From assembly GCA_018175035.1 (NCBI GenBank), contig GCA_018175035.1_4099.2: a stretch of 33,238 bases of DNA. One strand, 5' to 3'. Below are positions 75 to 14,463 of the stretch, one piece after another. Numbering within the stretch: position 1 is the first letter of the stretch; every line of letters starts with the position of its first letter. This DNA comes from a phage. The translations under genes and the position numbers were made by a program. The notes beneath the pieces were generated by a model. The model saw nothing but the letters and a program-made list of their open reading frames with translations, did no database searches and was not told the DNA's origin.

Positions 75-105
75 ATAGCCCGACATAAGTTCGGGCTATT
101 TTTGT
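75..105 (+). terminator. Rho-independent terminator
   Basis: Stem 75-83 / 91-99 (9 bp, core AGCCCGA/TCGGGCT), 7-nt loop, then TTTTT. Confidence 0.6.
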
Positions 106-115
106 AAGGGGATAT

Positions 116-391
116 ATGAATTATAAAGTTCTACAATATACATACAGTGTTTTGTTTGATTTACATCACAATGGAAGATATCTCAATACAATACGAGAAA
201 ACACATTCACTCATACTATCTGGATTAATCACTTAATAATGATACGTGAATATTTTGTTAATAGTGAGATAATCATTCGTGGTAAAAAACAGAAGATAGA
301 ACAAGTTAATAGTTTTGGTGGTAAATTAGTACTATCATTTATAGATAGTAATACTAATGAAAGATATAGTATAGATTTGGTGGACATATGA
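116..391 (+). CDS. Hypothetical small protein, paralog family A (N-terminal xxTYK motif)
   Basis: ATG with AAGGGG SD; N-terminus MNYKVLQYTYSVLFDL resembles neighbouring ORFs. Confidence 0.6.
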   Translation: MNYKVLQYTYSVLFDLHHNGRYLNTIRENTFTHTIWINHLIMIREYFVNSEIIIRGKKQKIEQVNSFGGKLVLSFIDSNTNERYSIDLVDI

Positions 392-654
392 ATTATAAAG
401 ATTTCCTACTAACATACAAGATTATTCGAGATTTAGCACACGACAATGATAGCCCTAGTCTAGAAGACACATGCACTGAAATGATTCATACGATTCGTGG
501 TAAGATTAAAAAAAAATTCAGTACTGTTATTATTGGTGATGACCATGCAGAATTTTCTGATATAATCATTAGACGTGATGGTAAAGTTGAGGTTCAGTAC
601 TACACTGATTTTGGATTTACCAGTATTCCGTTGGAGATATTCCCTTGGGATTAA
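388..654 (+). CDS. Hypothetical small protein, paralog family A
   Basis: ATGA overlap with upstream gene; N-terminus MNYKDFLLTYKIIRDL. Confidence 0.6.
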   Translation: MNYKDFLLTYKIIRDLAHDNDSPSLEDTCTEMIHTIRGKIKKKFSTVIIGDDHAEFSDIIIRRDGKVEVQYYTDFGFTSIPLEIFPWD

Positions 655-956
655 ATTTAAATGATATACAATTCACTTATAAGATCCTATATGATTTGTA
701 TGATGTATACCTTGTTAGTAACAAAATAGGTTCACATAACCCATACAAAGAACAACCATTTATTGATTTATATATTGAGTACTTAGATTCAGTAGGTGAA
801 TATATAAAAAAGAATTACAGTACTTTTATCGACGGAAATGATATATTCGAGTTCTCTGGAGTTAAATCATACAATGGGATTATCCATGTTGAATTTCTTG
901 AAATAACCGATAGGGGATTTATCGAGATTAAAGTTGTGAAGTTGGTGAATTTATAA
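645..956 (+). CDS. Hypothetical small protein, paralog family A
   Basis: TTG start (no in-frame ATG), GGAG 8 nt upstream; N-terminus ...DIQFTYKILYDL. Confidence 0.5.
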   Translation: MGLNLNDIQFTYKILYDLYDVYLVSNKIGSHNPYKEQPFIDLYIEYLDSVGEYIKKNYSTFIDGNDIFEFSGVKSYNGIIHVEFLEITDRGFIEIKVVKLVNL

Positions 957-966
957 GAGGTTACAT

Positions 967-1278
967 ATGTTATTAAATGATATACAATTCACATACAAAT
1001 TTTTGTATATCCAATACGCTACGGTTGATGCTGGAGAATATCTCTACGGTGAAATCTATCGTTCGGTATGGATAAAGTTTTTGGATGAATTACATGAATA
1101 TTACCATGATTTGTGTATAGTTCGTGATAATAAAATATACAAATTCCGCGATATTGTTAGTCATAGCGGTAAGCTACGATTGGAATTAAGTACTGATAGT
1201 GATGTTGATTGGATTGGTGTAAATTTACTGGAGTTGGAGAATGAAAAACAACTTAAAGGAAATACAAGTATTTTATAA
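967..1278 (+). CDS. Hypothetical small protein, paralog family A
   Basis: ATG with AGAGG SD; N-terminus MLLNDIQFTYKFLY. Confidence 0.6.
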   Translation: MLLNDIQFTYKFLYIQYATVDAGEYLYGEIYRSVWIKFLDELHEYYHDLCIVRDNKIYKFRDIVSHSGKLRLELSTDSDVDWIGVNLLELENEKQLKGNTSIL

Positions 1279-1525
1279 ATTCTTATACTTGTCATATGTA
1301 AAAGATGAGTACTATGAAAGTGTGTATTATTTTTTATGGCAACATTACCGTACTATAGTAAGAGATTTATATATAGGAAAATCTATCATATCCAATGGTG
1401 AAAAATGTATATGTACTGATGTTGTTAGTTTTAATGGTTCTTTAACACTGTGTTTCAGATGCGATAATAATAATGGGTCATTTTCATTAAACGTATATCA
1501 GTTAGAAGGAATAAATTTTGAATAA
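1241..1525 (+). CDS. Hypothetical small protein, paralog family A
   Basis: ATG with GGAGTTGGAGA SD; N-terminus ...EIQVFYKFLY, later LYIGKS; overlaps previous ORF by 38 nt. Confidence 0.55.
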   Translation: MKNNLKEIQVFYKFLYLSYVKDEYYESVYYFLWQHYRTIVRDLYIGKSIISNGEKCICTDVVSFNGSLTLCFRCDNNNGSFSLNVYQLEGINFE

Positions 1526-1718
1526 ATGTCCATATTGTAACAGTACTCAATTAGCTCGTTTCCGTTTAGATTCAGACTGGGCGACTGGTGCTGGTGATTT
1601 CTTCCCTATTAATGATGATGCAGAATACACCGAAGAACAGCACAAAGATTTTGATAAATCATGGCGACCTGACATTGAGTGCATTTATTGCCTTAATTGT
1701 GAGCGTGTTCATGACTAA
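1518..1718 (+). CDS. Small zinc-ribbon protein (CxxC...CxxC)
   Basis: TTG start with GAAGGA SD; CPYC near N-terminus and CLNC near C-terminus. Confidence 0.45.
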   Translation: MNKCPYCNSTQLARFRLDSDWATGAGDFFPINDDAEYTEEQHKDFDKSWRPDIECIYCLNCERVHD

Positions 1719-1974
1719 AGCTGAACTAATAGTTCATACATATAAAATGATATCAAGTACTGAGTTATCATATAGTGCAGATAATCCAGTACTAGATTAT
1801 TTTGTTGAATTATTGAAAGAGCATTATATTGGTAAATCACTGATTCTTAATAATATTAATTTCACGGTAAAGGATGTAGCACCTGGAAAAAACGTACTAA
1901 TAGTATGTGTTACTTCATCTGATAACCCAGTATACCCAATATCAATAATTTTTGAGATATTAGGAGATTTATGA
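1711..1974 (+). CDS. Hypothetical small protein, paralog family A
   Basis: Internal ATG 1711 of track ORF 1588..1974 chosen (the longer form would fully overlap the zinc-ribbon ORF); contains HTYK and HYIGKS motifs. Confidence 0.5.
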   Translation: MTKAELIVHTYKMISSTELSYSADNPVLDYFVELLKEHYIGKSLILNNINFTVKDVAPGKNVLIVCVTSSDNPVYPISIIFEILGDL

Positions 1975-2261
1975 ATATCATTTTAATGCAGAAAACATAT
2001 GCTATATTGGTGAAAGATTATTCCATTACTTTCGATTCACAAGAAAGTGCTCTACAGAACCTATACAAAAACGTAACACAAGAATACAGAAATATGTTTT
2101 CTGACTTAGTAGTAGGAAGGTATTTCAGTACTAGAAAATACCCAAAACTTCAAATAGTTGATGTTTCTTTTTATTTCAATGGTCATATTACTATTCATAG
2201 TTTAGACCAAGATTCAACAACGTACTTAAACTTTTCATTTGATGAGGTAACATTTTTATGA
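1971..2261 (+). CDS. Hypothetical small protein, paralog family A
   Basis: ATGA overlap; N-terminus MNIILMQKTYAILVKDY. Confidence 0.6.
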   Translation: MNIILMQKTYAILVKDYSITFDSQESALQNLYKNVTQEYRNMFSDLVVGRYFSTRKYPKLQIVDVSFYFNGHITIHSLDQDSTTYLNFSFDEVTFL

Positions 2262-2723: not shown

Positions 2724-2763
2724 ATTGGATGAGGAACAATAACTAACACAAGGAGTGTGTAAA

Positions 2764-3687
2764 GTGCCAAGTAAAAAGCCAGATTCTGAAGTATTCAGAC
2801 TGGTTGATGAAAAATTGAGTTCAATTGGTTCATCGGTAAAAATGGATAGAACAACATACACTACTATATCAAACAAATCAACTTTTTTCTGTGATGAATG
2901 TGGGTTTAGTAAAAATATCATAGTTAGGAATGTGTACAAAAATGGAATATTTTGTCACTGTCCCACATTTAAAACTTTATATAATAAATTGGGTGAAATT
3001 AATTCAAAATTAAAATTAGATATTTCCACATTCACAACTACAAAAAACAAATCTAGATTTTATTGTGACGATTGTGCGTTTGAAAGATATATGACGGTGC
3101 ATGATGTTAAGTCTAGAGGTTCATATTGTAAATGTCATTCATCATATTGTATGCCGTTAGATATCGACGAAGCATATAACACTATTATGAATAAAATAAA
3201 AGATTACTCAAATACAATATATATGGATAAATCTACATACCGTGGTACACAATATAAGGTTAGATTTTATTGTACAGCGTGTAATTTTGACAAATATATT
3301 AATTATAGTAGAGTTAAATGTGGATCTCTTAACTGCAATTGTATCAGACCAATCCCAGAAGAAAGTAAATTATATATTTTAGGAATATATGAACAAAATA
3401 TTTTAATAAAATATAAAGTTGGTATTTCTACAAAGATTGATAAATCAAGACTAATTAGTATTAGGTCAAAAACTAATTTTATAGTAGAGGAATTATATTA
3501 TTTTACTGGAAATACCGAAGTTATTAAAAGTGTAGAATATAATATTTTAAATCTGCTTAAAAATAGTAGTAAATTGCCAAAGGATTATTTTGGTGATGGG
3601 TATACTGAAACATTTGATTTACAAGACATAAATCTTGTTATTGATTATGTATGTAAATGTTTACTCGAAAATAAATTAAAAATATGA
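2764..3687 (+). CDS. Cys-rich protein with three zinc-ribbon-like repeats and a C-terminal T5orf172/GIY-YIG-like domain (tentative)
   Basis: GTG start 8 nt after AGGAG (track start 2755 is also GTG); three repeats of (R)F(F/Y)C(D/T)xC...C(H/K/N)C; C-terminus YILGIY...KVGIS...GDGYTETFDL. Confidence 0.55.
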   Translation: MPSKKPDSEVFRLVDEKLSSIGSSVKMDRTTYTTISNKSTFFCDECGFSKNIIVRNVYKNGIFCHCPTFKTLYNKLGEINSKLKLDISTFTTTKNKSRFYCDDCAFERYMTVHDVKSRGSYCKCHSSYCMPLDIDEAYNTIMNKIKDYSNTIYMDKSTYRGTQYKVRFYCTACNFDKYINYSRVKCGSLNCNCIRPIPEESKLYILGIYEQNILIKYKVGISTKIDKSRLISIRSKTNFIVEELYYFTGNTEVIKSVEYNILNLLKNSSKLPKDYFGDGYTETFDLQDINLVIDYVCKCLLENKLKI

Positions 3688-4451: not shown

Positions 4452-4733
4452 ATGGATTTTTATCTACACACATGGACATACGAACAATATATTACATTAT
4501 ATCTTGAAATTATTAACACAGAACCTAGGTGTGGTTGTTGGTTCGCAGATATCATAAAAGAGTATGCTGACGAGTTCGAGTTTGTGTATCTTGGGTCTGA
4601 TATATTTGTAAAAAGTGTAGGTAAAACCGGACGAATCACTGATATAGATTACGACACTGTTAGTGTGAATTTCTATGTTGATTTTCCTGATGCTGGCGTT
4701 GATGGTGTATATTGTCTATATGAAATAATTTAA
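4452..4733 (+). CDS. Hypothetical protein
   Basis: ATG with AGGAAA SD; followed by terminator. Confidence 0.6.
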   Translation: MDFYLHTWTYEQYITLYLEIINTEPRCGCWFADIIKEYADEFEFVYLGSDIFVKSVGKTGRITDIDYDTVSVNFYVDFPDAGVDGVYCLYEII

Positions 4734-4777: not shown

Positions 4778-5080
4778 ATGCTCAGTATAGATTTAATTAA
4801 CAGTACTATCAAAATGTTGGCTGATTTGGTGAGACAATCAAATGGAACTTTATATTCTGCAATGTATAAAATGTTTGACCGATATATCAAGGATTGTAAC
4901 ATATCATTATATGGACTTGCTGTTGATATAGACGATTACTATGGAATTAATACTTCATATAAAACAGGAATTTTAATTGGTATTAATATAAAGATGGGGT
5001 ATTTCCCTTATTACTGTATAGGATTACCAGATAATACTTTGGTAGAATATCCAGCCAGTACTATTAAATTAAGAGGATAA
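4778..5080 (+). CDS. Hypothetical protein
   Basis: ATG ORF, 100 aa. Confidence 0.5.
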   Translation: MLSIDLINSTIKMLADLVRQSNGTLYSAMYKMFDRYIKDCNISLYGLAVDIDDYYGINTSYKTGILIGINIKMGYFPYYCIGLPDNTLVEYPASTIKLRG

Positions 5081-6353: not shown

Positions 6354-6617
6354 ATGAATATTAAAGATAGATTACAATTACTATACACTATTGAACAGGC
6401 TGCTTTTGAACTTGTTAATAAAATCTCCGAAGAACTTCCCAAAGGAACTATAGTTCGTGTAATTGAGAGGGATTATGAATCTGGAGAAATTGAAGAACTA
6501 GTACTAACCGTGAATAAAGTAACATACTATGAATCTGAGTTGGCTATCCAATGTATATCGGAAGATGGTAAAATATACTATTATGACACTGGTGTAGATA
6601 TAGAGGTAATAAAATGA
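6354..6617 (+). CDS. Hypothetical small protein
   Basis: ATG 6354 directly after upstream TAA, GGTGGAAA upstream; track start 6309 would overlap upstream gene by 44 nt. Confidence 0.5.
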   Translation: MNIKDRLQLLYTIEQAAFELVNKISEELPKGTIVRVIERDYESGEIEELVLTVNKVTYYESELAIQCISEDGKIYYYDTGVDIEVIK

Positions 6618-7756
6618 CCCTTTTACAAATATATGAAGATTTAATGCACTTATGTAATACAAACGATGCGTTTTTTTATGTGGATCATAAAAGTCCTGCT
6701 GGTGGTACGTATCGTGTATTCAGTTATCGTCTAGCATCATACACTGATTTCATGCAACCAAATGCGTTGGAAACCCGTGGCTCTATGTGGGAAATTGATG
6801 AAGAAGGTGACATGATACGTTGTGCAGCACGTACAATGAAAAAGTTCTTCAATGCTTACGAGAATCCTGCTACAATGTTCCCTGCTAACACCACATGCGA
6901 TGACATTGCGGTAGTGATGCCTAAGTTGGATGGTTCGATTATCAGTACTTATCGTGATAATGATGGTGAGATTCGTTGTAAATCACATACTGCATTGTAT
7001 TCTGACCATGCGATTAACAGTACTCGACTTATTAACGAGAACCAGAATTTGTACCAGTACATCGACGAAGCGGAACGTTTAGGTTACACAGTTAATATGG
7101 AGTATACAAGCCCAGAGTACCGAATTGTATTACCATATCAGGTAGAACAACTGTTTGTACTGAACGTTCGACATCGTGTGAGTGGTGAGTTGCTATGTGG
7201 TAAAGCACTACGTGATAAGTTTCCATGTCTTGCACAGTACAGTACTAATATGACTGGAAAAGATATTCATCACACTTTTCCGGTACGAAATACCTTCCGT
7301 GAAAGCGTGGAGGAAGTTCATAAAATGCTTGATATTGAGGGTTTTGTGTGCATCCTAAATAATGGGACAATGTGTAAAATAAAGACTGACTGGTACAGTT
7401 CATTACATCTTACAAAAGATAGTATTATTATTGATTCTCATTTATATGAAGCAGTATTAAATGGTTCAAGTGATGATTTAAAACAATTGTTCAGTACTGA
7501 TGAATATGCTATGCAAAAGATATTAAGAATGGAACAATTGGTATTTTCGTGCTATAATGCATTACAAGATGAAGTAGAAAGCTTCGTCAAGGAACACAAG
7601 CACTTGGAGCGAAAGGAATTCGCAATGAAGGTTCAGGAGTGTTTAACTAATGAACTGAATCGTCAGGGCTTGGCCTTTGCAATGTATAACAATAAGAAAG
7701 TTGATTACAAAGAGACTCTTATAAAATACATGAAAATTGTACTAAAGGATTTTTAG
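6614..7756 (+). CDS. rnlA: RNA ligase 1 (T4 Rnl1 / gp63 family)
   Basis: N-terminal region closely resembles T4 Rnl1 as I recall it (FFY..D...G.TYR.FSY..ASY.D...P.ALE.RG...E.D....R...R.M.KFFN..ENP.TM); KxDGS nucleotidyl-lysine motif (PKLDGS); ~380 aa. Confidence 0.9.
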   Translation: MTLLQIYEDLMHLCNTNDAFFYVDHKSPAGGTYRVFSYRLASYTDFMQPNALETRGSMWEIDEEGDMIRCAARTMKKFFNAYENPATMFPANTTCDDIAVVMPKLDGSIISTYRDNDGEIRCKSHTALYSDHAINSTRLINENQNLYQYIDEAERLGYTVNMEYTSPEYRIVLPYQVEQLFVLNVRHRVSGELLCGKALRDKFPCLAQYSTNMTGKDIHHTFPVRNTFRESVEEVHKMLDIEGFVCILNNGTMCKIKTDWYSSLHLTKDSIIIDSHLYEAVLNGSSDDLKQLFSTDEYAMQKILRMEQLVFSCYNALQDEVESFVKEHKHLERKEFAMKVQECLTNELNRQGLAFAMYNNKKVDYKETLIKYMKIVLKDF

Positions 7757-7786: not shown

Positions 7787-8041
7787 ATGGCTAAACCTAA
7801 GTATAAAAATGACGGTTCCCTTTCTCCGACTGAGTTCAGGAAAATACAAGAAGAAATCGATGAATTACAGCACAAACGCTCAATGAAAGGTGTGAAGATA
7901 AGTAAGAAACGAATCGAGAATACCTTCGGATGTAGTAGTACTGAATACAAGAAGAAAAGGAAACCAAAAGGTGTTAAGCCGAGAATACATGATGTAACTC
8001 GCTATACATCGAAACGTGAAAATAAATTTGATCCACTATAA
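7787..8041 (+). CDS. Small highly basic (Lys/Arg-rich) protein, possible nucleic-acid binding
   Basis: ATG 5 nt after AAGGAG; track start 7784 is GTG. Confidence 0.55.
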   Translation: MAKPKYKNDGSLSPTEFRKIQEEIDELQHKRSMKGVKISKKRIENTFGCSSTEYKKKRKPKGVKPRIHDVTRYTSKRENKFDPL

Positions 8042-8050
8042 GGAGTTCAT

Positions 8051-8281
8051 ATGAAAGTTGAAGTTCAGCATAGTATTGTTCAGGATATGTCAGTAGTTAA
8101 ATTTCTTTCTCTGAAAGATTACTTCAGATGTATCAAGTTCCTAGAAGAATCTCAATTACAGTGGACCCCATTAAAGTACAGTTCATCCAATGATACTGCT
8201 AGTATTCGTTGTGATGAATCTGTACTTGTGAAAATCTCCAAGCGATTTGGAGTAGGAAAAGTTAATGAGCACAGTAAGTGA
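8051..8281 (+). CDS. Hypothetical small protein
   Basis: ATG with GGAG SD. Confidence 0.55.
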   Translation: MKVEVQHSIVQDMSVVKFLSLKDYFRCIKFLEESQLQWTPLKYSSSNDTASIRCDESVLVKISKRFGVGKVNEHSK

Positions 8282-8519
8282 CCTAAAATACTACAACAAA
8301 ACTGCGGATACGTTTATTACTCATTTATATGAAGAATTTAGTCGTATCCGTAAGGAATATACAGGTAAATGTATTTTATATAGTTCTTATCATAGTGGTG
8401 GAATTGAAAGTGCTTACATTACTAAAGTGAAGTTTTCTGATGACTATCAATTACTCTTTGAATTAGATGATTGTTTCGTTATTGAAGCTTGTTTGATAGT
8501 GGATGTTCTAGATAATTGA
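8265..8519 (+). CDS. Hypothetical small protein (paralog family B-like, YTGKCILY)
   Basis: ATG ORF overlapping upstream gene by 17 nt. Confidence 0.5.
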   Translation: MSTVSDLKYYNKTADTFITHLYEEFSRIRKEYTGKCILYSSYHSGGIESAYITKVKFSDDYQLLFELDDCFVIEACLIVDVLDN

Positions 8520-8525
8520 GGACAT

Positions 8526-8840
8526 ATGAATAAAGAACTTGTATTTGAGAGGATCGAAAAGTTAAAGTACATTGAAAAGGAACTAATAGAATCTGTCGAA
8601 TCAATGGTCGAAGATTACGTTTTCGATTTTAAGAAAACATTGATTGGATGTAAAGTTAAATGCTGGGATCATACAATCAGAGAATGGTTCAGTACTATAA
8701 TTCTTGATGTTAAAGTATCGCGTACTGCTATTGGTAATTTAGTAAATGGTGAATGCTTTGTATACACTGAATACAATAACGGAACAAGAAACCTTTCAAG
8801 AGGATGGCACAAACTCGAAGATGTAGAATTCATTGAGTAA
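8526..8840 (+). CDS. Hypothetical small protein (paralog family B-like, LIGCKVKCWD)
   Basis: ATG with GAGGA SD. Confidence 0.55.
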   Translation: MNKELVFERIEKLKYIEKELIESVESMVEDYVFDFKKTLIGCKVKCWDHTIREWFSTIILDVKVSRTAIGNLVNGECFVYTEYNNGTRNLSRGWHKLEDVEFIE

Positions 8841-8852
8841 CAAGGAGTAATA

Positions 8853-9785
8853 ATGCCAACTATTACACTAACAGTTGGATTACCTGGGTGTGGTAAAACC
8901 ACATGGGCAGTTCAAGAAATTAAAAATGCCAAATCCAAGACTATCAACATCAACCGTGATGATATTCGTGAATCTATGGCTGGGTCACATGATGCTTACA
9001 AATTCAACGATGCTAATGAGCAGTACGTAACTAATTTACAGTTCAGTGCAGCAAATTCAGCAGCAGAGAATGGTTGGAACATCATCATATCCGATACAAA
9101 CCTTAAACAACATTTCCGTAATCTCTGGAAAGTATGGGCTAAAGATAATGGTTATGATTACAAAGAAAAGAACTTCTATGATGATTTTGTACCTAATGAA
9201 GACCGTGGTGCAGATGTTCATGAATTCTTTAAGATTAAAGAGTTCGTAAAACTTTGTAAGAAATATAACCTCCAGCGTGAGCGTTCAGTACAAGATGATA
9301 TCATTGACACAATGGCAGATACGTACTATTATAGTAAGGCATTACACATTGGTTACTATGGTAATTCACGCGAAGCTGCTATCATCGTTGATATCGATGG
9401 AACTCTTGCTCATAAATGGGGTCGTAATCCTTACGATGAAAGTACTGTTCTTCAGGATACACCTGATGAAGAAGTTATTTTGTCTATTATCGCTGAAGCA
9501 GTTTTTCATAAACGCAAGATTATCGTCATGAGTGGGCGTACTGAAGGGTGTCGTGCTGATACCGAACAGTGGCTTAAGAATTGGGGTGTTCCTTACGATG
9601 CATTGTTTATGCGAGATATCGATGATAAACGTCCTGATGATGTTGTAAAATTCGACCTGTACATGAAAAATGTGGTTGATCATTACGATGTTAAAAAGGT
9701 ATATGATGACCGCGATCAAGTTGTATTCATGTGGCGTAAGCTACTTGGGTTGAAAGTTTTCCAAGTGGCTGAAGGAAATTTCTAA
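8853..9785 (+). CDS. pseT: Polynucleotide 5'-kinase / 3'-phosphatase (T4 PseT/Pnk family)
   Basis: AAGGAG SD; N-terminal P-loop GLPGCGKTT with NINRDD; C-terminal HAD phosphatase motif DIDGTL; C-terminus ...DDRDQVVFMWRKLLGLKVFQVAEGNF resembles T4 Pnk as I recall it. Confidence 0.9.
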   Translation: MPTITLTVGLPGCGKTTWAVQEIKNAKSKTININRDDIRESMAGSHDAYKFNDANEQYVTNLQFSAANSAAENGWNIIISDTNLKQHFRNLWKVWAKDNGYDYKEKNFYDDFVPNEDRGADVHEFFKIKEFVKLCKKYNLQRERSVQDDIIDTMADTYYYSKALHIGYYGNSREAAIIVDIDGTLAHKWGRNPYDESTVLQDTPDEEVILSIIAEAVFHKRKIIVMSGRTEGCRADTEQWLKNWGVPYDALFMRDIDDKRPDDVVKFDLYMKNVVDHYDVKKVYDDRDQVVFMWRKLLGLKVFQVAEGNF

Positions 9786-9789
9786 TACA

Positions 9790-9820
9790 AAAGGGATCAT
9801 ATATTGGTCCCTTTTTCTTT
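9790..9820 (+). terminator. Rho-independent terminator
   Basis: Stem AAAGGGATC / GGTCCCTTT (9 bp incl. one G-U), 7-nt loop, then T-rich tail. Confidence 0.55.
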
Positions 9821-9852
9821 TAAGGTACATTATAGTGAATGTAACAACACAG

Positions 9853-10011
9853 ATGTTATTACAAAAAGACTACTTAGAAAATATAGAACGATACTATAGA
9901 TTGTCTTTGTATGAAAATAAGCATAAAAATTATAGTTTTGATAAACTACTAAATTCCAGTACTGATGATTATCTATTTTCATCAATGTTTTATGTGAGAG
10001 GTTTATTATAA
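9853..10011 (+). CDS. Possible small ORF (52 aa); not in ORF track
   Basis: ATG 9853, stop TAA overlapping next ATG (TAATG); no clear SD. Confidence 0.3.
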   Translation: MLLQKDYLENIERYYRLSLYENKHKNYSFDKLLNSSTDDYLFSSMFYVRGLL

Positions 10012-10271
10012 TGGATAAATTTCACACAGATATAACACAGATAGGTAATCTTATCAATAGTCTAATTACTGATTTAGAAGAAAAGTACTTAGGTAGAAAT
10101 GTATACGTAGAAATGTATGAAACATATGGTGTTATTGATATGATTTATTACAGTGCATTGAAGTGTGAAATACGTTTAACAGTATGTTTGTTTGAAAAAA
10201 ATACATTCAACAGAAGTACTGCAATTCGCCAAGTTGGAGTTGATGATATAGAATTATACGAGGAACAATGA
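10011..10271 (+). CDS. Hypothetical small protein, paralog family B (KYLGRNV motif)
   Basis: ATG ORF; motif DLEEKYLGRNVYVE. Confidence 0.55.
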   Translation: MDKFHTDITQIGNLINSLITDLEEKYLGRNVYVEMYETYGVIDMIYYSALKCEIRLTVCLFEKNTFNRSTAIRQVGVDDIELYEEQ

Positions 10272-10522
10272 TGTTTGAGCAGGACTTAGAGATATTCAAA
10301 AGTTATATTGATTACTTGACTATATTAGAAAATGATTTAACTACAAAGTACAAAGGCATTCGTGTTCTGTGCTGGTATGATGATTGGGATTATAAACGTG
10401 AACTCACGATTGATCGAATTTATTTCAGTGACGGTGTACTAAATGTACATGGTGTAAATGATTTTGGTCATTCATATACATATTCTAATAATGCTAAATT
10501 TAAAAGGATCTACAATGAATGA
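10268..10522 (+). CDS. Hypothetical small protein, paralog family B
   Basis: ATGA overlap; motif DLTTKYKGIRVLCW. Confidence 0.55.
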   Translation: MMFEQDLEIFKSYIDYLTILENDLTTKYKGIRVLCWYDDWDYKRELTIDRIYFSDGVLNVHGVNDFGHSYTYSNNAKFKRIYNE

Positions 10523-10817
10523 ATATTATCATAATTTATTCGATTACATAAAACTAATAGATGATCTTTCTTTTGACTTTCTCAGTACTGAAAAAGTTCT
10601 TGAACCTCTCTATTATGATTGTATTAGTTCACTATGTTTAGATGAAAAAGAGATATTAGCAAACAACTTACCATCCACGGTCTGTACAATCAATGGTTCC
10701 AAGGCATTAGTGTGCGAGGTTAATTTTCATAAATCACTTAATACAATTGTTTACAAGTTCGATAACACTTGGGTAAATCATGTAACCAGTAATATTAAAT
10801 CTGTGAGATTTTTATGA
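10515..10817 (+). CDS. Hypothetical small protein
   Basis: ATG 10515 (MNEYYHNL...) chosen inside track ORF 10458..10817; 8-nt overlap with upstream stop. Confidence 0.5.
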   Translation: MNEYYHNLFDYIKLIDDLSFDFLSTEKVLEPLYYDCISSLCLDEKEILANNLPSTVCTINGSKALVCEVNFHKSLNTIVYKFDNTWVNHVTSNIKSVRFL

Positions 10818-11110
10818 ATATAAAAAAATTATTTGAACAAGTAAATTTATTGTACTGGTGTTCAGACGGGTCAGATAAAGAAAATAGTGAAGCTTTTTTA
10901 GAATTATTCAGAAATGAAATACACATAATTAGAAGATACTTAATTGATAATAAAACTGAAGTAAAAGTTAGATACCATAATGGTACTTTAAAGAATGGTA
11001 TAATTATTGGATTGATAGTTACACGAATGTCTAGTAATATTAAAGTTGCAGTAAGATTAATGACTGATGATGGTGTCTACACAATAGAAGCTAGTGAGAT
11101 TATATATTAA
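10814..11110 (+). CDS. Hypothetical small protein
   Basis: ATGA overlap. Confidence 0.55.
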   Translation: MNIKKLFEQVNLLYWCSDGSDKENSEAFLELFRNEIHIIRRYLIDNKTEVKVRYHNGTLKNGIIIGLIVTRMSSNIKVAVRLMTDDGVYTIEASEIIY

Positions 11111-11416
11111 ATGGATATACAAACATTCAATAAACTTAAGTACTATGATAATGGTTTTGCATTAATAATTAACGAACTTGATGGAATACCATACGAATAT
11201 CATAATCAATTAATGAAGATAATAAAATGTATATGTGAAGAATTAAAAAGTATATTTAAAAATGAATATGTTTATGATTTAGGTAATAGTAGCAAAAAAC
11301 TATACATAAAGAAATTCTGGGGAACGCATTGCGGTTTGATGGTCGATTTAGGTTTAAGTTTAGACGATAATTCTGAATCATGTTCATTATATATAGATGA
11401 AATGCGAATATCATGA
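11111..11416 (+). CDS. Hypothetical small protein
   Basis: ATG immediately after upstream TAA. Confidence 0.55.
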   Translation: MDIQTFNKLKYYDNGFALIINELDGIPYEYHNQLMKIIKCICEELKSIFKNEYVYDLGNSSKKLYIKKFWGTHCGLMVDLGLSLDDNSESCSLYIDEMRIS

Positions 11417-11456
11417 GACGTATCAGAATTCGGTGATATAATTTGATTACATCACC
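11414..11456 (+). promoter_or_regulatory. Sigma70-like promoter (extended -10 GTGATATAAT) embedded in inverted repeat GGTGAT-N13-ATCACC
   Basis: TGaTATAAT at 11434-11442; -35 position TGAGAC; inverted-repeat arms 11432-11437 and 11451-11456. Confidence 0.35.
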
Positions 11457-11473
11457 AATAGGGAGAAGTTGAA

Positions 11474-11800
11474 GTGAATGGTTCGTTTTTAACAATATTA
11501 GAAAAGACAACCGAGATGCTTTCTAGCTCGTTAATGCAGATTTTCAGTACTAATAATTTATACAATACCCAGGTGTTAGATTCAATTAATAATAACTATG
11601 TGGTAAGTATATCTGATGAAATATGTCCATTTAACGCGTATTCAATTTATAGTGTAGAAGAGTTTCGTATATCCGAGATTCGATGTGGTTTTGGTGCTTG
11701 GTTAGTTCTAAATGAACGTTCAGGGTTGTCTTTATACATCGAAGAAGTTAGTAAATTTATATACAAAGGAGTAGAATATGTTAACCCCAATTATTCTTAG
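11474..11800 (+). CDS. Hypothetical protein
   Basis: GTG start 7 nt after GGGAGA SD; 108 aa. Confidence 0.5.
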   Translation: MNGSFLTILEKTTEMLSSSLMQIFSTNNLYNTQVLDSINNNYVVSISDEICPFNAYSIYSVEEFRISEIRCGFGAWLVLNERSGLSLYIEEVSKFIYKGVEYVNPNYS

Positions 11801-12407
11801 CAGTGCATATGTAATCGGTATTATTATTTCTGGTATGCTTGCATATAACTATAACCGAAGTGTTCTAGGTTATGTAGTACTTGGTACAGTACTAAGTCCA
11901 GTGATTGCCATTGGTCTTCTTGTTATGCTAGGTGAGAAAAATACAAGCTTCTTTATTACTAAAGAACTTGATAAAATCACTCCAGCACCAGAAACAGTTA
12001 TTCCAGAAGTTAAAGAAGAAGTTAAAGAAGTTGAAGTTCAAATGCAAGTTAAAGTGTATAATACACTTGAAGAAACTGATCCTAAAGTTGTAGTGAATGT
12101 AGTTCCAGTCGTTGAAGATGTGAAACCAAAAGCTCCTAAAGTACAGAAAAATACTAAAACTGCAAAGAAAGCTCGTTACACTAAAGGTAAGAACAAAGGT
12201 AAATCTAAGGATGAACCACAACTAGGTGTTCATGACCATACTGCACAAATTGCAACGGCAGCGACCGCAGCAGCAATCGTAACATCACCAATCTACAACA
12301 ATGATGATTACAGTGATTATAGCCGTCACAGCAGTTCTTCCTCTGATTCTTGTTCCTATGATAGCTCTAGTTCTGATTCAAGTTCATCGTCTGGAAGTTG
12401 TGATTAA
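11778..12407 (+). CDS. Membrane-anchored protein with Lys/Glu/Val-rich linker and Ser-rich C-terminal tail
   Basis: Two hydrophobic N-terminal segments; C-terminus SSSSSDSCSYDSSSSDSSSSSGSCD. Confidence 0.6.
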   Translation: MLTPIILSSAYVIGIIISGMLAYNYNRSVLGYVVLGTVLSPVIAIGLLVMLGEKNTSFFITKELDKITPAPETVIPEVKEEVKEVEVQMQVKVYNTLEETDPKVVVNVVPVVEDVKPKAPKVQKNTKTAKKARYTKGKNKGKSKDEPQLGVHDHTAQIATAATAAAIVTSPIYNNDDYSDYSRHSSSSSDSCSYDSSSSDSSSSSGSCD

Positions 12408-12736
12408 TGTCAATGAAACCACTAATTCAACATAATATTTTTTATAGGTCATTATTCAAAATTCAAGATGATTTTTATCAGACGTTGAGTAATGATCTTA
12501 TAGGTAAAACTGTACGATATTCGGAACAATACATCAAACGTATGACAAGTCAGTATATTGACCCTGAATACGAATACGACATTGAACACATTAATCCCAA
12601 TACTAGAATGAAAATCATTGAGATATTTAAGAATGGGAGAACTATAGGTGCTGAAATTGAGTACTTGAATTGTGATTGTTACATAGATACAGAGTTGAGT
12701 TTGGATTATCTTGTTTTAGTGGATGATGAGGAATAA
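12407..12736 (+). CDS. Hypothetical small protein, paralog family B-like (LIGKTVRY)
   Basis: TAATG overlap. Confidence 0.55.
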   Translation: MSMKPLIQHNIFYRSLFKIQDDFYQTLSNDLIGKTVRYSEQYIKRMTSQYIDPEYEYDIEHINPNTRMKIIEIFKNGRTIGAEIEYLNCDCYIDTELSLDYLVLVDDEE

Positions 12737-12738
12737 TT

Positions 12739-12954
12739 ATGATAACATTTTTTGCAATATATGGATTTGTAGCATTTGTTACATTTATAACCAACTTTCT
12801 AGTACTTAATTGGGGTTGTTTTAAAGATGAAATCATGATTATCATGAATCTCCAAACAGCAGCACTGATGGCTATTATTTGGCCTGTAACATTAGTATAT
12901 ATTTTTATTTCACTTACCCAAGATATTATTAACAAATATAAGAGAAAGAAATAA
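12739..12954 (+). CDS. Small membrane protein (two predicted TM helices)
   Basis: ATG ORF; hydrophobic, C-terminus KYKRKK. Confidence 0.5.
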   Translation: MITFFAIYGFVAFVTFITNFLVLNWGCFKDEIMIIMNLQTAALMAIIWPVTLVYIFISLTQDIINKYKRKK

Positions 12955-13205
12955 TGTTCAACACTGACTTATCACATCTGCGATATCTTATGTCTTTGGC
13001 TGATGATTTTATAAATGATCTGAAGCCAAAATATATTGGTCAAGAAGTACGATTAATAAACTCCAGAGGGTATGGAAAGTATATTATTACTGATATGTAT
13101 ATTAGTGGTGGTGAATGGCGTTTTAAAATTAATACTTATCTTAAAGATGGTTCTTTTGCTGGAACACAAGTTACTAAACACACTAATATTATATGGTTGG
13201 AGTAA
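12954..13205 (+). CDS. Hypothetical small protein, paralog family B (KYIGQEV)
   Basis: TAATG overlap; motif DLKPKYIGQEVRLIN. Confidence 0.55.
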   Translation: MFNTDLSHLRYLMSLADDFINDLKPKYIGQEVRLINSRGYGKYIITDMYISGGEWRFKINTYLKDGSFAGTQVTKHTNIIWLE

Positions 13206-13207
13206 TA

Positions 13208-13951
13208 ATGAAACACTTCTTAGAAGTAACCGTACCTGATGATAAAGATTTATACATTGTAGGTGATTTGCATGGTAATGGTAAACTATGGGATGCTACA
13301 GTGAAAGAATTTGGTATTACACACAATGATTATGTTTTCAGTGTAGGTGATATTATCGACCGTGGAGAACAAAATTCAAAGCTCCTTTTTGAATTTTTGT
13401 TCGGAGAAAATCGTTACATGATTGCGGGTAATCATGAGATGATGTGCGTTGATTCGGAAACACTTCGAGATTGGTATCATTGTTGGATAAGTAATGGTGG
13501 TGATAAATTCCTTGATGAAGTTGGAGGAACAGGCATTCAATTCTTTCGTCAGTACTTAAAGGATCTCCCTATGATTATCCAAATCAATCACCGAGGATTG
13601 AAGATTGGGTTAGTTCATGCTGGTGTTCCGTTGGAATATACAACATGGGAACGATTTGTTAATGGGACAAAATCACTTAGTGCTGATATAATTGATAAGT
13701 GCTTGTGGGATAGAAAAACATTCGATTATTGTAGAACTAATAATACATATTATGCACCTAAGTTAGATGGAGTGCATTGTGTCTTTAGTGGACATACAGC
13801 AGTTACAGATCCACTCATTTACGGTAATCGCATTTGGATTGATAGTCAGTTCTTGACGGGTGACTTAACTCTCGCTACTCCACAAAGTGGTGGAATGAGA
13901 TACTTACGTAAAGAAAAAGATGAGTACTCATTCAATCGTTTCAAAAGGTAA
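13208..13951 (+). CDS. PPP-family Ser/Thr phosphatase-like metallophosphoesterase (lambda PPase / ApaH-like)
   Basis: Motifs GDLHG, GDIIDRG, GNHE; ATG 13208 with GGAG SD just after upstream stop (track start 13193 overlaps upstream gene). Confidence 0.8.
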   Translation: MKHFLEVTVPDDKDLYIVGDLHGNGKLWDATVKEFGITHNDYVFSVGDIIDRGEQNSKLLFEFLFGENRYMIAGNHEMMCVDSETLRDWYHCWISNGGDKFLDEVGGTGIQFFRQYLKDLPMIIQINHRGLKIGLVHAGVPLEYTTWERFVNGTKSLSADIIDKCLWDRKTFDYCRTNNTYYAPKLDGVHCVFSGHTAVTDPLIYGNRIWIDSQFLTGDLTLATPQSGGMRYLRKEKDEYSFNRFKR

Positions 13952-13956
13952 TAATT

Positions 13957-14199
13957 ATGCATGATGTAGTTAAAAAATATTTGAATGATAGATATATTAT
14001 GAAAAAATCTATTAATTCTATCCTAAAAGACCATGCTAATCAAATACGTGAGATTCTATCAAATAAACTTATTGGTTGTTCAGTTGAGTTCAACTACAAA
14101 AAGAATGTCGTGAAGATTGGAGTTATTAAACGTGTAGTTGCTGTTTATGACCAAAAGTATATGTTGAAATTGAATATGATGGTAAATTATCACAATTAA
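13957..14199 (+). CDS. Hypothetical small protein, paralog family B-like (LIGCSVEF)
   Basis: ATG with AAAAGG SD. Confidence 0.5.
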   Translation: MHDVVKKYLNDRYIMKKSINSILKDHANQIREILSNKLIGCSVEFNYKKNVVKIGVIKRVVAVYDQKYMLKLNMMVNYHN

Positions 14200-14235
14200 G
14201 TACTGAAGATTTAACATTTTTATAAGGAAATAGAA

Positions 14236-14463
14236 ATGAAAGTAATTCAAGTTATGGTAGAAAAATACCAAACTGAAGATGGTCGTATTTTTGATTCAGC
14301 TAAACAAGCTGAACACCATGAACGTATTATTTCGGGTGCACGTAAAGTATGTCCTACATGTAATGGAACACAACAAGTACCGTCAGAAGATTACCGCAGC
14401 TTTTATGCTTGTCCACACTGTGATGGGAAAGGCTACGTAGAAAAACAAGAGGTATGGAAATGA
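14236..14463 (+). CDS. Small zinc-ribbon protein (CPTC...CPHC)
   Basis: ATG with AAGGAAA SD; two CxxC pairs. Confidence 0.55.
   Translation: MKVIQVMVEKYQTEDGRIFDSAKQAEHHERIISGARKVCPTCNGTQQVPSEDYRSFYACPHCDGKGYVEKQEVWK

What the first reader, a model, noticed from the sequence alone, without database searches (positions are those of the whole stretch)
8265..14199. Second dispersed small-protein family sharing a K(Y)xGxxV core (family B)
At least eight small ORFs (8265, 8526, 10011, 10268, 12407, 12954, 13957, plus 1241 and 1711 of family A) contain a similar segment about 20-30 residues from the N-terminus: DLEEKYLGRNVYVE, DLTTKYKGIRVLCW, DLKPKYIGQEVRLIN, LLKEHYIGKSLIL, NDLIGKTVRYSE, KKTLIGCKVKCWD, SNKLIGCSVEFNY. 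Families A and B may therefore be one large, rapidly diverging superfamily that occupies a sizeable fraction of this region.
Basis: seen in the sequence. Interest (0 to 1): 0.45.

Follow-up and report, generated by a model that had tools for sequence, protein, structure and literature searches.

The report
Jumbo-phage family of small SH3-like proteins
The shared "KYxGxxV" segment is real: it marks where an N-terminal helix joins a small SH3-like beta-barrel in a fast-evolving family of about 17 tiny proteins found only in 121Q-like (Asteriusvirus) jumbo coliphages, whose function is still unknown.

Summary
The window comes from an Asteriusvirus jumbo coliphage (121Q/PBECO4 group), not a T4-like phage in the strict sense.

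- **Motif:** all nine named ORFs carry the quoted motif 25-44 residues from the N-terminus. A loose form, [YL]xGxx[VIL], occurs in 11 of 38 small window proteins, against 2.0±1.4 in shuffles.
- **Family B is real:** in leave-one-group-out profile tests every member scores p≤0.006.
- **Fold:** AlphaFold2 gives confident models for B (g12954, pLDDT 85) and A (g1241, pLDDT 89). Both have N-terminal helix(es) followed by an SH3/Tudor/KOW-like barrel of four to five strands. The motif sits at the helix-to-strand-1 junction in both.
- **A-B link:** direct profile-profile comparison is weak (hhalign 7.5%). Transitive profile searches join A and B in both directions, while 18 control seeds never leave their ortholog groups. 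The B model's second-best match among viral structure predictions is the family-A protein 121Q gp426.
- **Extent:** the superfamily has 17 genes here, about one third of the first 14 kb, plus gp376 elsewhere in 121Q. It was found nowhere outside this phage group.
- **Evolution:** the genes are under purifying but relaxed selection.
- **Function:** no known family matches. A role as small binding proteins is inference only.

The parts
8265..8519 (+). Family B member (84 aa), motif EYTGKCI at residues 31-37
   Evidence: Leave-one-out p=0.002. hhalign 62% to g12407. Recruited in the pooled iteration. dN/dS 0.25-0.30.
8526..8840 (+). Family B member (104 aa), motif TLIGCKV
   Evidence: Leave-one-out 21.1 bits against a best shuffle of 13.3. 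hhalign 70% to g12954.
10011..10271 (+). Family B member (86 aa), motif KYLGRNV
   Evidence: hhalign 84% to g12954. Leave-one-out p=0.006. Used as a seed it reaches all of B plus A members.
10268..10522 (+). Family B member (84 aa), motif KYKGIRV; the weakest B member
   Evidence: hhalign 60% to g12954. Leave-one-out p=0.003. Its Turkey5 and JNE01 orthologs are recruited in the pooled iteration, but the window copy itself reaches only E=0.011.
12407..12736 (+). Family B member (109 aa), motif DLIGKTV, with longer loops
   Evidence: Leave-one-out 22.3 bits against a best shuffle of 10.2.
12954..13205 (+). Family B hub member (83 aa), motif KYIGQEV. This is the protein modelled.
13957..14199 (+). 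Family B member, motif KLIGCSV. Frameshifted here: a 1-nt deletion after about position 14156. Intact orthologs are 89 aa and would end at about 14224 with ...VYVEIEYDGKLSQLSTEDLTFL.
   Evidence: DNA alignment with 121Q and ph0011. Ortholog sequences P0016 and P0019. Leave-one-out p=0.002.
10814..11110 (+). Probable superfamily member (98 aa), without a clear G motif
   Evidence: Recruited in round 9 of the pooled iteration at E=1.9e-4. A-profile p=0.018. No structure model.
4452..4733 (+). Probable superfamily member (93 aa), motif VYLGSDI
   Evidence: Recruited in the pooled iteration at E=1.9e-4 and from the g10011 seed. p=0.03-0.04 with both profiles. Sub-threshold KOW hit.
4778..5080 (+). 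Probable superfamily member (100 aa), motif SLYGLAV
   Evidence: B-profile 10.0 bits, p=0.002. Recruited late in the pooled iteration.
116..391 (+). Family A member (91 aa)
   Evidence: hhalign 98.5% to g0967. Recruited from both the B seed and the A seed.
388..654 (+). Family A member (88 aa)
   Evidence: hhalign 94% to g0645..
645..956 (+). Family A member (103 aa)
   Evidence: hhalign 98% to g0967. phrog_21004.
967..1278 (+). Family A member (103 aa). Its Turkey5 ortholog is the B-to-A bridge.
   Evidence: L006_3455_3739 scores E=1.4e-4 against a B-only profile, over 40 residues of helix plus FIGKHV.
1241..1525 (+). Family A member (94 aa) with motif LYIGKSI; the A protein modelled. The long start is the right one: 121Q annotates only 78 aa.
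1711..1974 (+). Family A member (87 aa) with motif HYIGKSL
   Evidence: B-profile 9.3 bits, p=0.002. hhalign 49% to g0967.
1971..2261 (+). Family A member (96 aa), motif LVVGRYF
6354..6617 (+). Possible distant member (87 aa); unresolved
   Evidence: B-profile p=0.004 and A-profile p=0.02. Recruited from the g10011 seed, but its own seed stays isolated and its final E-value is 0.044.
75..99 (+). Terminator-like hairpin just upstream of the family-A array
   Evidence: 9-bp stem, 5 GC pairs, T-run.
9789..9815 (+). Terminator-like hairpin after the polynucleotide kinase gene, ahead of the 9835-14199 small-gene array
   Evidence: 11-bp stem, T-rich tail.

Best explanation
The K(Y)xGxxV segment is the structural hinge of one lineage-specific multigene family of small (80-110 aa), soluble, mostly acidic, non-virion proteins of Asteriusvirus jumbo phages.

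**Architecture.** Each protein has one (B) or two (A) N-terminal alpha-helices followed by an SH3-like (Tudor/KOW-type) beta-barrel of four to five strands. The aromatic or aliphatic residue ends the helix, the glycine makes the turn, and the V/I begins strand 1.

**Evolution.** The genes arose by repeated tandem duplication. They sit in co-directional, tightly packed arrays interleaved with RNA-repair and nucleotide-metabolism genes. They diverge far faster than their neighbours, and are exchanged as cassettes between related phages. Only scaffold (core) positions are conserved. There are no conserved catalytic, metal-binding or basic residues.

**Inferred function (not shown).** They most likely act stoichiometrically as small binding or adaptor proteins. 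Each paralog would present a different surface to a host or phage macromolecule during infection, in host takeover or counter-defence.

**What is shown and what is inferred.** Shown: the motif, the reality of family B, the fold, the restriction to this phage group, and the selection regime. Well supported but not proven: common ancestry of A and B. Inferred: the binding function.
For: - **Motif enrichment:**
- **B coherence:**
- **A-B link:**
  - The pooled iterative search from g12954 alone converges on 90 sequences. These are A + B + 4452/4778/10814 + 121Q gp376, and no other of the 1499 ORFs of 121Q.
  - The reciprocal search from g1241 reaches g12954.
  - 18 control seeds stay within their orthologs.
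  - The B model's rank-2 BFVD hit is A member gp426, TM 0.61/0.65 over 77 columns.
- **Real genes, fast evolving:** dN/dS 0.03-0.6, and 31-42% identity to A4 where the neighbours g7784 and g8051 are 93-96%.
- **Restricted distribution:** a full HMMER scan of 1.84 billion representatives finds only the family's own clusters. Divergent copies lie on syntenic 352-359 kb contigs.
- **Properties:** acidic to neutral pI, no transmembrane segments. None is labelled a virion protein in the 121Q annotation.
Against: - The direct merged profile comparison of A against B has only 7.5% probability.
- A and B profiles do not cross-hit in the 121Q genome, and single-genome iteration from B stops at 8 members.
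- The B-to-A bridge is one 40-residue helix-plus-motif segment of 18.7 bits.
- HMMER E-values here are about 10-fold optimistic, judging by the decoys.
- The SH3-like barrel is one of the commonest small folds, so shared fold alone does not prove homology.
- Foldseek E-values against BFVD are all above 1e-3.
- Only two members were modelled.
- Nothing bears directly on function. Expression timing is unknown: the sigma-70 scan found no more sites than in shuffles.
Confidence: 0.65

Rival explanations
1. A and B are two independent families. They share only a common fold (SH3-like barrel preceded by a helix) and a convergent G-x-x-V strand-1 start. This is the same physical solution seen in KOW motifs, so the 'superfamily' would be analogy, not homology.
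For: - hhalign of merged A against merged B gives 7.5% probability.
- Genome-wide A and B profiles do not find each other.
- PHROGs keeps nearly every member in its own family.
- In four of the seven A members (116, 388, 645, 967) the glycine is absent.
Against: - Transitive searches link A and B in both directions, while 18 controls never drift.
- The weak hhalign match is in exactly the structurally equivalent register.
- The A member gp426 is the second-best full-length structural match of the B model among viral structure predictions.
- Both families lie in the same co-directional arrays of one phage lineage.
Confidence: 0.2
2. The proteins are divergent members of a known RNA-polymerase-binding Tudor-like family (the CarD/TRCF RID domain, or the PcrA/UvrD C-terminal domain). 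They would work by docking on the host RNA polymerase beta subunit to redirect transcription.
For: - UvrD and PcrA C-terminal Tudor domains are hit by both models.
- From established knowledge: the phage relies on host RNA polymerase with phage sigma factors, which are annotated in 121Q.
Against: - No Pfam match to any Tudor, CarD or KOW family at E≤1, apart from one sub-threshold KOW hit.
- No PDB sequence match.
Confidence: 0.1
3. The shared segment is a chance or compositional artefact of AT-rich small ORFs, some of which are not genes.
For: The genome is about 33% GC, and the small proteins are rich in I, K, N and Y. HMMER E-values are somewhat optimistic on decoys.
Against: - Motif count is 11 against 2.0±1.4 in shuffles.
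- Leave-one-out scores exceed composition-matched shuffles.
- All members are conserved with dN/dS below 1 in four other phages.
- The AF2 models are confident.
Confidence: 0.02

Closest known systems
SH3-like beta-barrels of the Tudor / chromo / KOW type (e.g. ERCC6L2 Tudor 6hq9, Spt5 KOW 4ytl, NusG KOW 1m1g, R67 plasmid DHFR 1vie, HspQ 5ycq)
   Different: - No sequence-profile membership.
- An obligatory N-terminal helix or helical hairpin precedes the barrel.
- No G-x-x-K-G second half of the KOW motif.
- No conserved aromatic cage was identified.
- The proteins are stand-alone and acidic rather than basic.
RNA-polymerase-interacting Tudor-like domains (CarD N-terminal domain 4l5g; UvrD/PcrA C-terminal domain 7egs_B, 5dma_A)
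   Different: Similarity is at fold level only. There is no Pfam hit, and binding to RNA polymerase is untested.
Lineage-specific expansions of small domains in jumbo phages (e.g. about 35 zinc-ribbon copies in Bacillus phage G; PMC7824862). Also the RCC1-like array and the ~60-75-aa ORF arrays of 121Q itself.
   Same: A tandem, co-directional, rapidly diverging paralog array confined to one jumbo-phage lineage.
   Different: A different fold. This family is not mentioned in that survey or in the Asteriusvirus genome papers searched.
PHROGs singleton-like families (phrog_37322, 29519, 33398, 31355, 29135, 38615, 21004, 32291 ...)
   Same: Each window protein matches its own PHROG end to end at E of 1e-42 to 1e-75. 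g8265 matches none, and g1241 matches only other members' PHROGs weakly.
   Different: PHROGs does not unite them; only g0645 and g0967 share phrog_21004. All are of 'unknown function'.

Membership tests
Asteriusvirus small-protein family B (defined here) | Each member is recognised by a profile built from the other members only | tested here: met
   Leave-one-group-out HMM: 8.3-23.0 bits, empirical p 0.001-0.006 against 1000 shuffles for all seven.
Asteriusvirus small-protein family B (defined here) | [YL]xGxx[VIL] at the end of an N-terminal helix, 25-45 residues from the start | tested here: met
   G29 is invariant in 24 sequences. In the AF2 model the helix ends at residue 27 and strand 1 starts at 31.
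A+B superfamily | Direct profile-profile similarity between merged A and merged B | tested here: inconclusive
   hhalign probability 7.5%, P=0.0047, 28 columns aligned on the motif. Genome-wide direct profiles do not cross-hit.
A+B superfamily | Reciprocal transitive (iterative) profile connection that controls do not show | tested here: met
   Searches give the links. One search gives 18 control seeds, none of which expands. One decoy passed the inclusion threshold in each of two family-seeded runs and in the g2403 control run.
A+B superfamily | Same fold and same position of the motif in the fold | tested here: met
SH3-like barrel fold | Small antiparallel barrel (canonically five strands) that matches solved SH3-like domains | tested here: met
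KOW motif (Pfam PF00467) | Sequence reaches the Pfam gathering score | tested here: not met
   Only g4452 gives a hit: 12.9 bits against a cut-off of 22.3, E=0.1. No other member hits.
CarD/TRCF RID and PcrA/UvrD Tudor-like domains | Sequence-family membership | tested here: not met
   No Pfam hit at E≤1. No PDB sequence hit at E≤10 to these proteins.
CarD/TRCF RID and PcrA/UvrD Tudor-like domains | Binds the RNA polymerase beta subunit | not testable with these tools
   Needs pull-down or co-structure experiments.
Royal-family Tudor/chromo readers | Aromatic cage for methyl-lysine or methyl-arginine | not tested
No conserved cluster of aromatic residues is evident in alignment A3 beyond Y27 and Y40.
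Sm/Hfq-like proteins (N-terminal helix plus five bent strands) | Sm1/Sm2 sequence motifs, or Sm/Hfq proteins among the best structural matches | tested here: not met

The most novel reading that the evidence does not exclude
The arrays are a phage-encoded 'binder library'. On this reading, a single helix-plus-Tudor-like scaffold has been duplicated about 17 times and its surfaces diversified. Each copy would neutralise or redirect a different host factor, such as the RNA polymerase beta subunit (as CarD and UvrD Tudor domains bind it), proteases, or anti-phage defence proteins. Cassette exchange between phages would tune host range. That would make it a previously unrecognised family of host-takeover or anti-defence proteins.
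Probability: 0.2. Interest if true: 0.6.

Novelty: new member of a known kind. Interest (0 to 1): 0.35.

Why it matters
About 80% of the genes of 121Q-like jumbo phages have no known function. This analysis shows that at least 17 of these orphan genes are one diverging family with a defined fold, which:
- reduces the 'dark matter' of these genomes;
- gives a rational set of targets for interaction screens;
- adds a clear example of lineage-specific expansion and cassette exchange of a small binding scaffold in a therapeutic-candidate phage group.

It does not by itself reveal a new mechanism.

Tried and rejected
- **Word-indexed homolog search, single protein (g12954):** returned only its own 90% cluster, so it was uninformative.
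- **Sigma-70 promoter scan:** no more sites than in shuffles (85 against 90.8), so expression timing could not be inferred.
- **Pfam, PHROGs and PDB sequence searches:** no known family.
- **Stricter iteration (threshold 1e-4):** stalls at the orthologs. Single-genome iteration stops at 8 members. The superfamily link therefore needs divergent orthologs from other phages as intermediates.
- **g10515, g11111, g11474, g2403 and g32393:** considered as members because of weak p-values. Their own seeds never connect, so they are left unassigned.
- **The g1518-g14236 hhalign 'hit' (80%):** only an 8-column CPxC zinc-ribbon motif, so it was rejected as a family link.
- **Procedural note:** I re-fetched two loci after wrongly concluding that loci fetched in parallel were missing from the sandbox. 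They were stored as multi-record files.
Full report
**Identity of the window.** Megablast of 8000-14300 finds 36 phage records, all Escherichia or Salmonella jumbo phages of 310-386 kb. The best match is ECO103 4-12-1 at 99.6%; 121Q is 96.9% identical and PBECO4 99%. These belong to the genus Asteriusvirus. They carry T4-like core genes but are not T4-like phages in the strict sense. The region holds RnlA RNA ligase (6614-7756), polynucleotide kinase/phosphatase (8853-9785) and a Ser/Thr phosphatase (13193-13951). Further on lie a DnaJ-like zinc finger, a PTH2-like hydrolase and a DNA ligase. Between them are many small co-directional ORFs, often overlapping by a few bases.

**Checking the observation.**
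- The loose pattern [YL]xGxx[VIL], starting at residues 20-50, occurs in 11 of 38 small window proteins. In 2000 composition-preserving shuffles it occurs in 2.04±1.37 (maximum 7).
- The strict pattern occurs in 9 of 38 against 0.06, but it was defined after seeing the members.
- The loose pattern adds g4452 and g4778 to the list.

**Is family B a real family?** Raw pairwise similarity is weak. The best pair is 10011-12954 at E of about 2e-4 in a 38-sequence database. PHROGs puts each matched member in its own family, g8265 matches none, and Pfam has nothing.

To build profiles I fetched the syntenic regions of 121Q, ph0011, Turkey5, JNE01 and A4, where orthologs are 23-95% identical. The profile results were:
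- **hhalign with ortholog alignments:** 10011-12954 84%, 8526-12954 70%, 8265-12407 62%, 12407-12954 61%, 10268-12954 60%. Unrelated small proteins of the same window stay at or below 7%. The one exception is a trivial 8-column CPxC match between two zinc-ribbon proteins.
- **Leave-one-group-out HMM test against 1000 shuffles of each target:** all seven members score p 0.001-0.006. Three are far above every shuffle: 8526 at 21.1 bits, 12407 at 22.3 and 12954 at 23.0, against best shuffles of 10-13.

Family B is therefore real.

**What the proteins look like.**
- **Position of the motif.** In both models it occupies the same structural position. The Y/L is the last helical residue, the G is the turn, and the V/I is in strand 1. 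In g12954 this is K26-V32; in g1241 it is L43-I49. The 'K(Y)xGxxV core' is thus the helix-to-barrel hinge.

**Are A and B one superfamily?** The direct tests are weak:
- Merged B against merged A by hhalign gives probability 7.5% and P=0.0047. The 28 aligned columns are exactly the helix-plus-motif register.
- An A-only profile scores B members at p 0.02-0.18, while controls are uniform.
- A B-only profile picks g1711 at p=0.002 and g1241 at p=0.038.
- I assembled the whole 121Q genome from seven further fetches (1499 ORFs on both strands). There the A profile finds only its seven members. The B profile finds its seven plus one new gene, gp376 (173592-173900, E=2e-6, motif EKYAGRKV), and weakly gp347.
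- Iteration inside 121Q alone stops at eight members.

The transitive tests are stronger:
- I pooled 2018 ORFs (the window, the whole 121Q genome, and the A4, JNE01, Turkey5 and ph0011 regions) with 6054 shuffled decoys. Iteration from g12954 alone at an inclusion threshold of 1e-3 converges on 90 sequences. These are all seven A groups, the B groups, g4452, g4778, g10814 and gp376. No other 121Q ORF is recruited.
- The first B-to-A bridge is the Turkey5 A-type protein L006_3455_3739. It scores E=1.4e-4 against a purely B profile, when the best decoy in that round was 0.027. The match runs over 40 residues of helix plus FIGKHV.
- The link is reciprocal. Iteration from g1241 recovers all of A and then g12954. 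Iteration from g10011 recovers all of B plus g0967, g1241, g4452, g6354 and gp376.
- Eighteen control seeds, run through the identical procedure, never left their ortholog groups.

There is also an independent structural line. Foldseek of the B model against BFVD returns no match with E≤1e-3. Its rank-2 hit (E 6.8e-3, TM 0.61/0.65 over 77 of 78 residues) is A0A097EY12. An exact-sequence look-up identifies this as 121Q gp426, the ortholog of family-A g1241.

Taken together, I consider common ancestry of A and B likely, at roughly 0.7. It is not proven, because the fold is ubiquitous and the sequence bridge is short.

**Extent and distribution.**
- In the window the superfamily comprises 17 genes: seven A, seven B, plus 4452, 4778 and 10814. 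They total about 4.8 kb, about 34% of the first 14.2 kb. Within 8265-14199 the fraction is about 32-37%.
- g6354 is borderline. g10515, g11111, g11474, g2403 and g32393 could not be connected.
- A full HMMER scan of 1.84 billion representative proteins with the B profile found nine clusters, all of them the family's own.
- The most divergent copies lie on syntenic 352-359 kb contigs in E. coli assemblies. The word-indexed searches likewise returned only Asteriusvirus-type sequences.
- I found no description of the family in Asteriusvirus genome papers or in the jumbo-phage comparative survey. That survey does document analogous lineage-specific expansions, for example about 35 zinc ribbons in phage G.

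**Evolutionary behaviour.**
- Members have dN/dS of 0.03-0.6, apart from one saturated comparison at 0.89. They are therefore real coding genes under purifying but relaxed selection. Neighbouring small genes have dN/dS of 0-0.19.
- Against phage A4 the B members are 31-42% identical, while the adjacent g7784 and g8051 are 96% and 93% identical.
- Divergence is mosaic. g1241, g1711 and g1971 are 92-95% identical to A4 but 28-59% identical to ph0011. g8265 and g8526 are 88% identical to ph0011 but 31-38% identical to A4. This implies cassette exchange.
- Copy number differs between phages. A4 carries extra paralogs between the kinase and phosphatase genes, and Turkey5 has fewer A copies.
- The window copy of g13957 has a 1-nt deletion that removes the last two strands of the barrel.

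**Mechanism (inference).**
- The conserved positions are hydrophobic core residues and the hinge glycine. No conserved His/Asp/Cys/Lys pattern suggests catalysis or metal binding.
- The proteins are soluble and mostly acidic to neutral, with pI 4.1-6.7 for 15 of 18 and no transmembrane segments. None is annotated as a virion protein in 121Q. Acidity argues against generic nucleic-acid binding.
- The most economical reading is a stable scaffold with freely varying surfaces. The proteins would be small stoichiometric binders or adaptors acting on host or phage proteins, diversified by duplication and recombination.
- Plus-strand terminator-like hairpins at 75-99 and 9789-9815 immediately precede two of the arrays. 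This suggests they are separate transcription units. Timing could not be inferred.

**Verdict.** This is a previously undescribed, lineage-restricted multigene family with a common fold. It is a new member of a known kind of phenomenon, namely small-domain expansions in jumbo phages. It is of moderate interest until a function is found.

Noticed in passing
window ~14156-14157 (within ORF 13957-14199): There is a single-base deletion after CCAAAA, relative to 121Q and ph0011. It frameshifts the gene: the product is 80 aa ending ...QKYMLKLNMMVNYHN, instead of 89 aa ending ...VYVEIEYDGKLSQLSTEDLTFL. The last two barrel strands are lost. An identical 80-aa product (P0013) is on two other contigs, so this may be a real variant or a homopolymer sequencing error.
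   Followed up: yes
window 2755-3687 (+): This 310-aa ORF is absent from 121Q, A4 and Turkey5 at this position; ph0011 has a different 494-aa ORF there. It contains three tandem repeats of a CxxC...CxC zinc-ribbon-like module (e.g. KSTFFCDECGFSK...GIFCHC) and a C-terminal domain of about 100 aa. There is no Pfam hit above threshold. It looks like an insertion hot spot, possibly holding a mobile gene.
   Followed up: partly
window 1241-1525 vs L001 3245-3481: 121Q annotates the g1241 ortholog (gp426) from a downstream start, giving 78 aa. The 94-aa form begins MKNNLKEIQVFYKFLY. That matches the family-A N-terminal signature, is conserved in orthologs P0050, P0051 and P0054, and is modelled as a confident helix. 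The longer start, which overlaps the previous gene by 38 nt, is probably correct.
   Followed up: partly
121Q genome 173592-173900 (gp376) and 162166-162552 (gp347); loci L011: Outside the window region there is one additional family-B member and one possible member. gp376 scores E=2e-6 and carries EKYAGRKV. gp347 is weak, carries SEKYKGTEF, and is 128 aa. They lie 23-35 kb upstream of the window-equivalent region, inside a long run of small hypothetical genes.
   Followed up: partly
window 116-2261 and 8265-8840 compared with L002 (A4) and L007 (ph0011): The divergence pattern is mosaic. g1241, g1711 and g1971 are 92-95% identical to A4 but 28-59% identical to ph0011. g8265 and g8526 are 88% identical to ph0011 but 31-38% identical to A4. 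This indicates recombinational exchange of small-gene cassettes among Asteriusviruses.
   Followed up: partly
window 11778-12407 (+): This 209-aa protein has N-terminal hydrophobic (membrane-like) segments, a Lys/Glu/Val-rich middle and a C-terminal Ser-rich low-complexity tail (SSSSSDSCSYDSSSSDSSSSSGSCD). There is no Pfam hit. A small two-transmembrane-like ORF (12739-12954) sits between two family-B genes.
   Followed up: no
121Q genome 117-131 kb (minus strand), 131-135 kb and 155-161 kb (L010, L011): There are other conspicuous paralog-like arrays in the same phage. About 14 consecutive RCC1-like genes lie on the minus strand. There are also two long runs of ~60-75-aa hypothetical ORFs (genes 249-265 and 319-341). 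Multigene arrays are a general feature of this genome.
   Followed up: no
L007 12996-13292 (ph0011 ortholog of window 10814-11110): This gene is annotated in GenBank as a 'Mononegavirus-type SAM-dependent 2'-O-MTase domain-containing protein'. For a 98-aa protein that joins the helix-plus-barrel family in iterative search, this name is almost certainly spurious.
   Followed up: no
window 1518-1718 and 14236-14463 (+): These are two small Cys-rich zinc-ribbon or DnaJ-like proteins that share a CPxC motif. The 80% hhalign probability rests on 8 columns only. One of them sits in the middle of the family-A array.
   Followed up: no
window 75-99 and 9789-9815 (+): These are the two best intrinsic-terminator-like hairpins of the first 14.6 kb. 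They lie immediately upstream of the family-A array and of the 9835-14199 small-gene array. Overall, 10 terminator-like sites were found against 4.2±1.8 in shuffles.
   Followed up: partly
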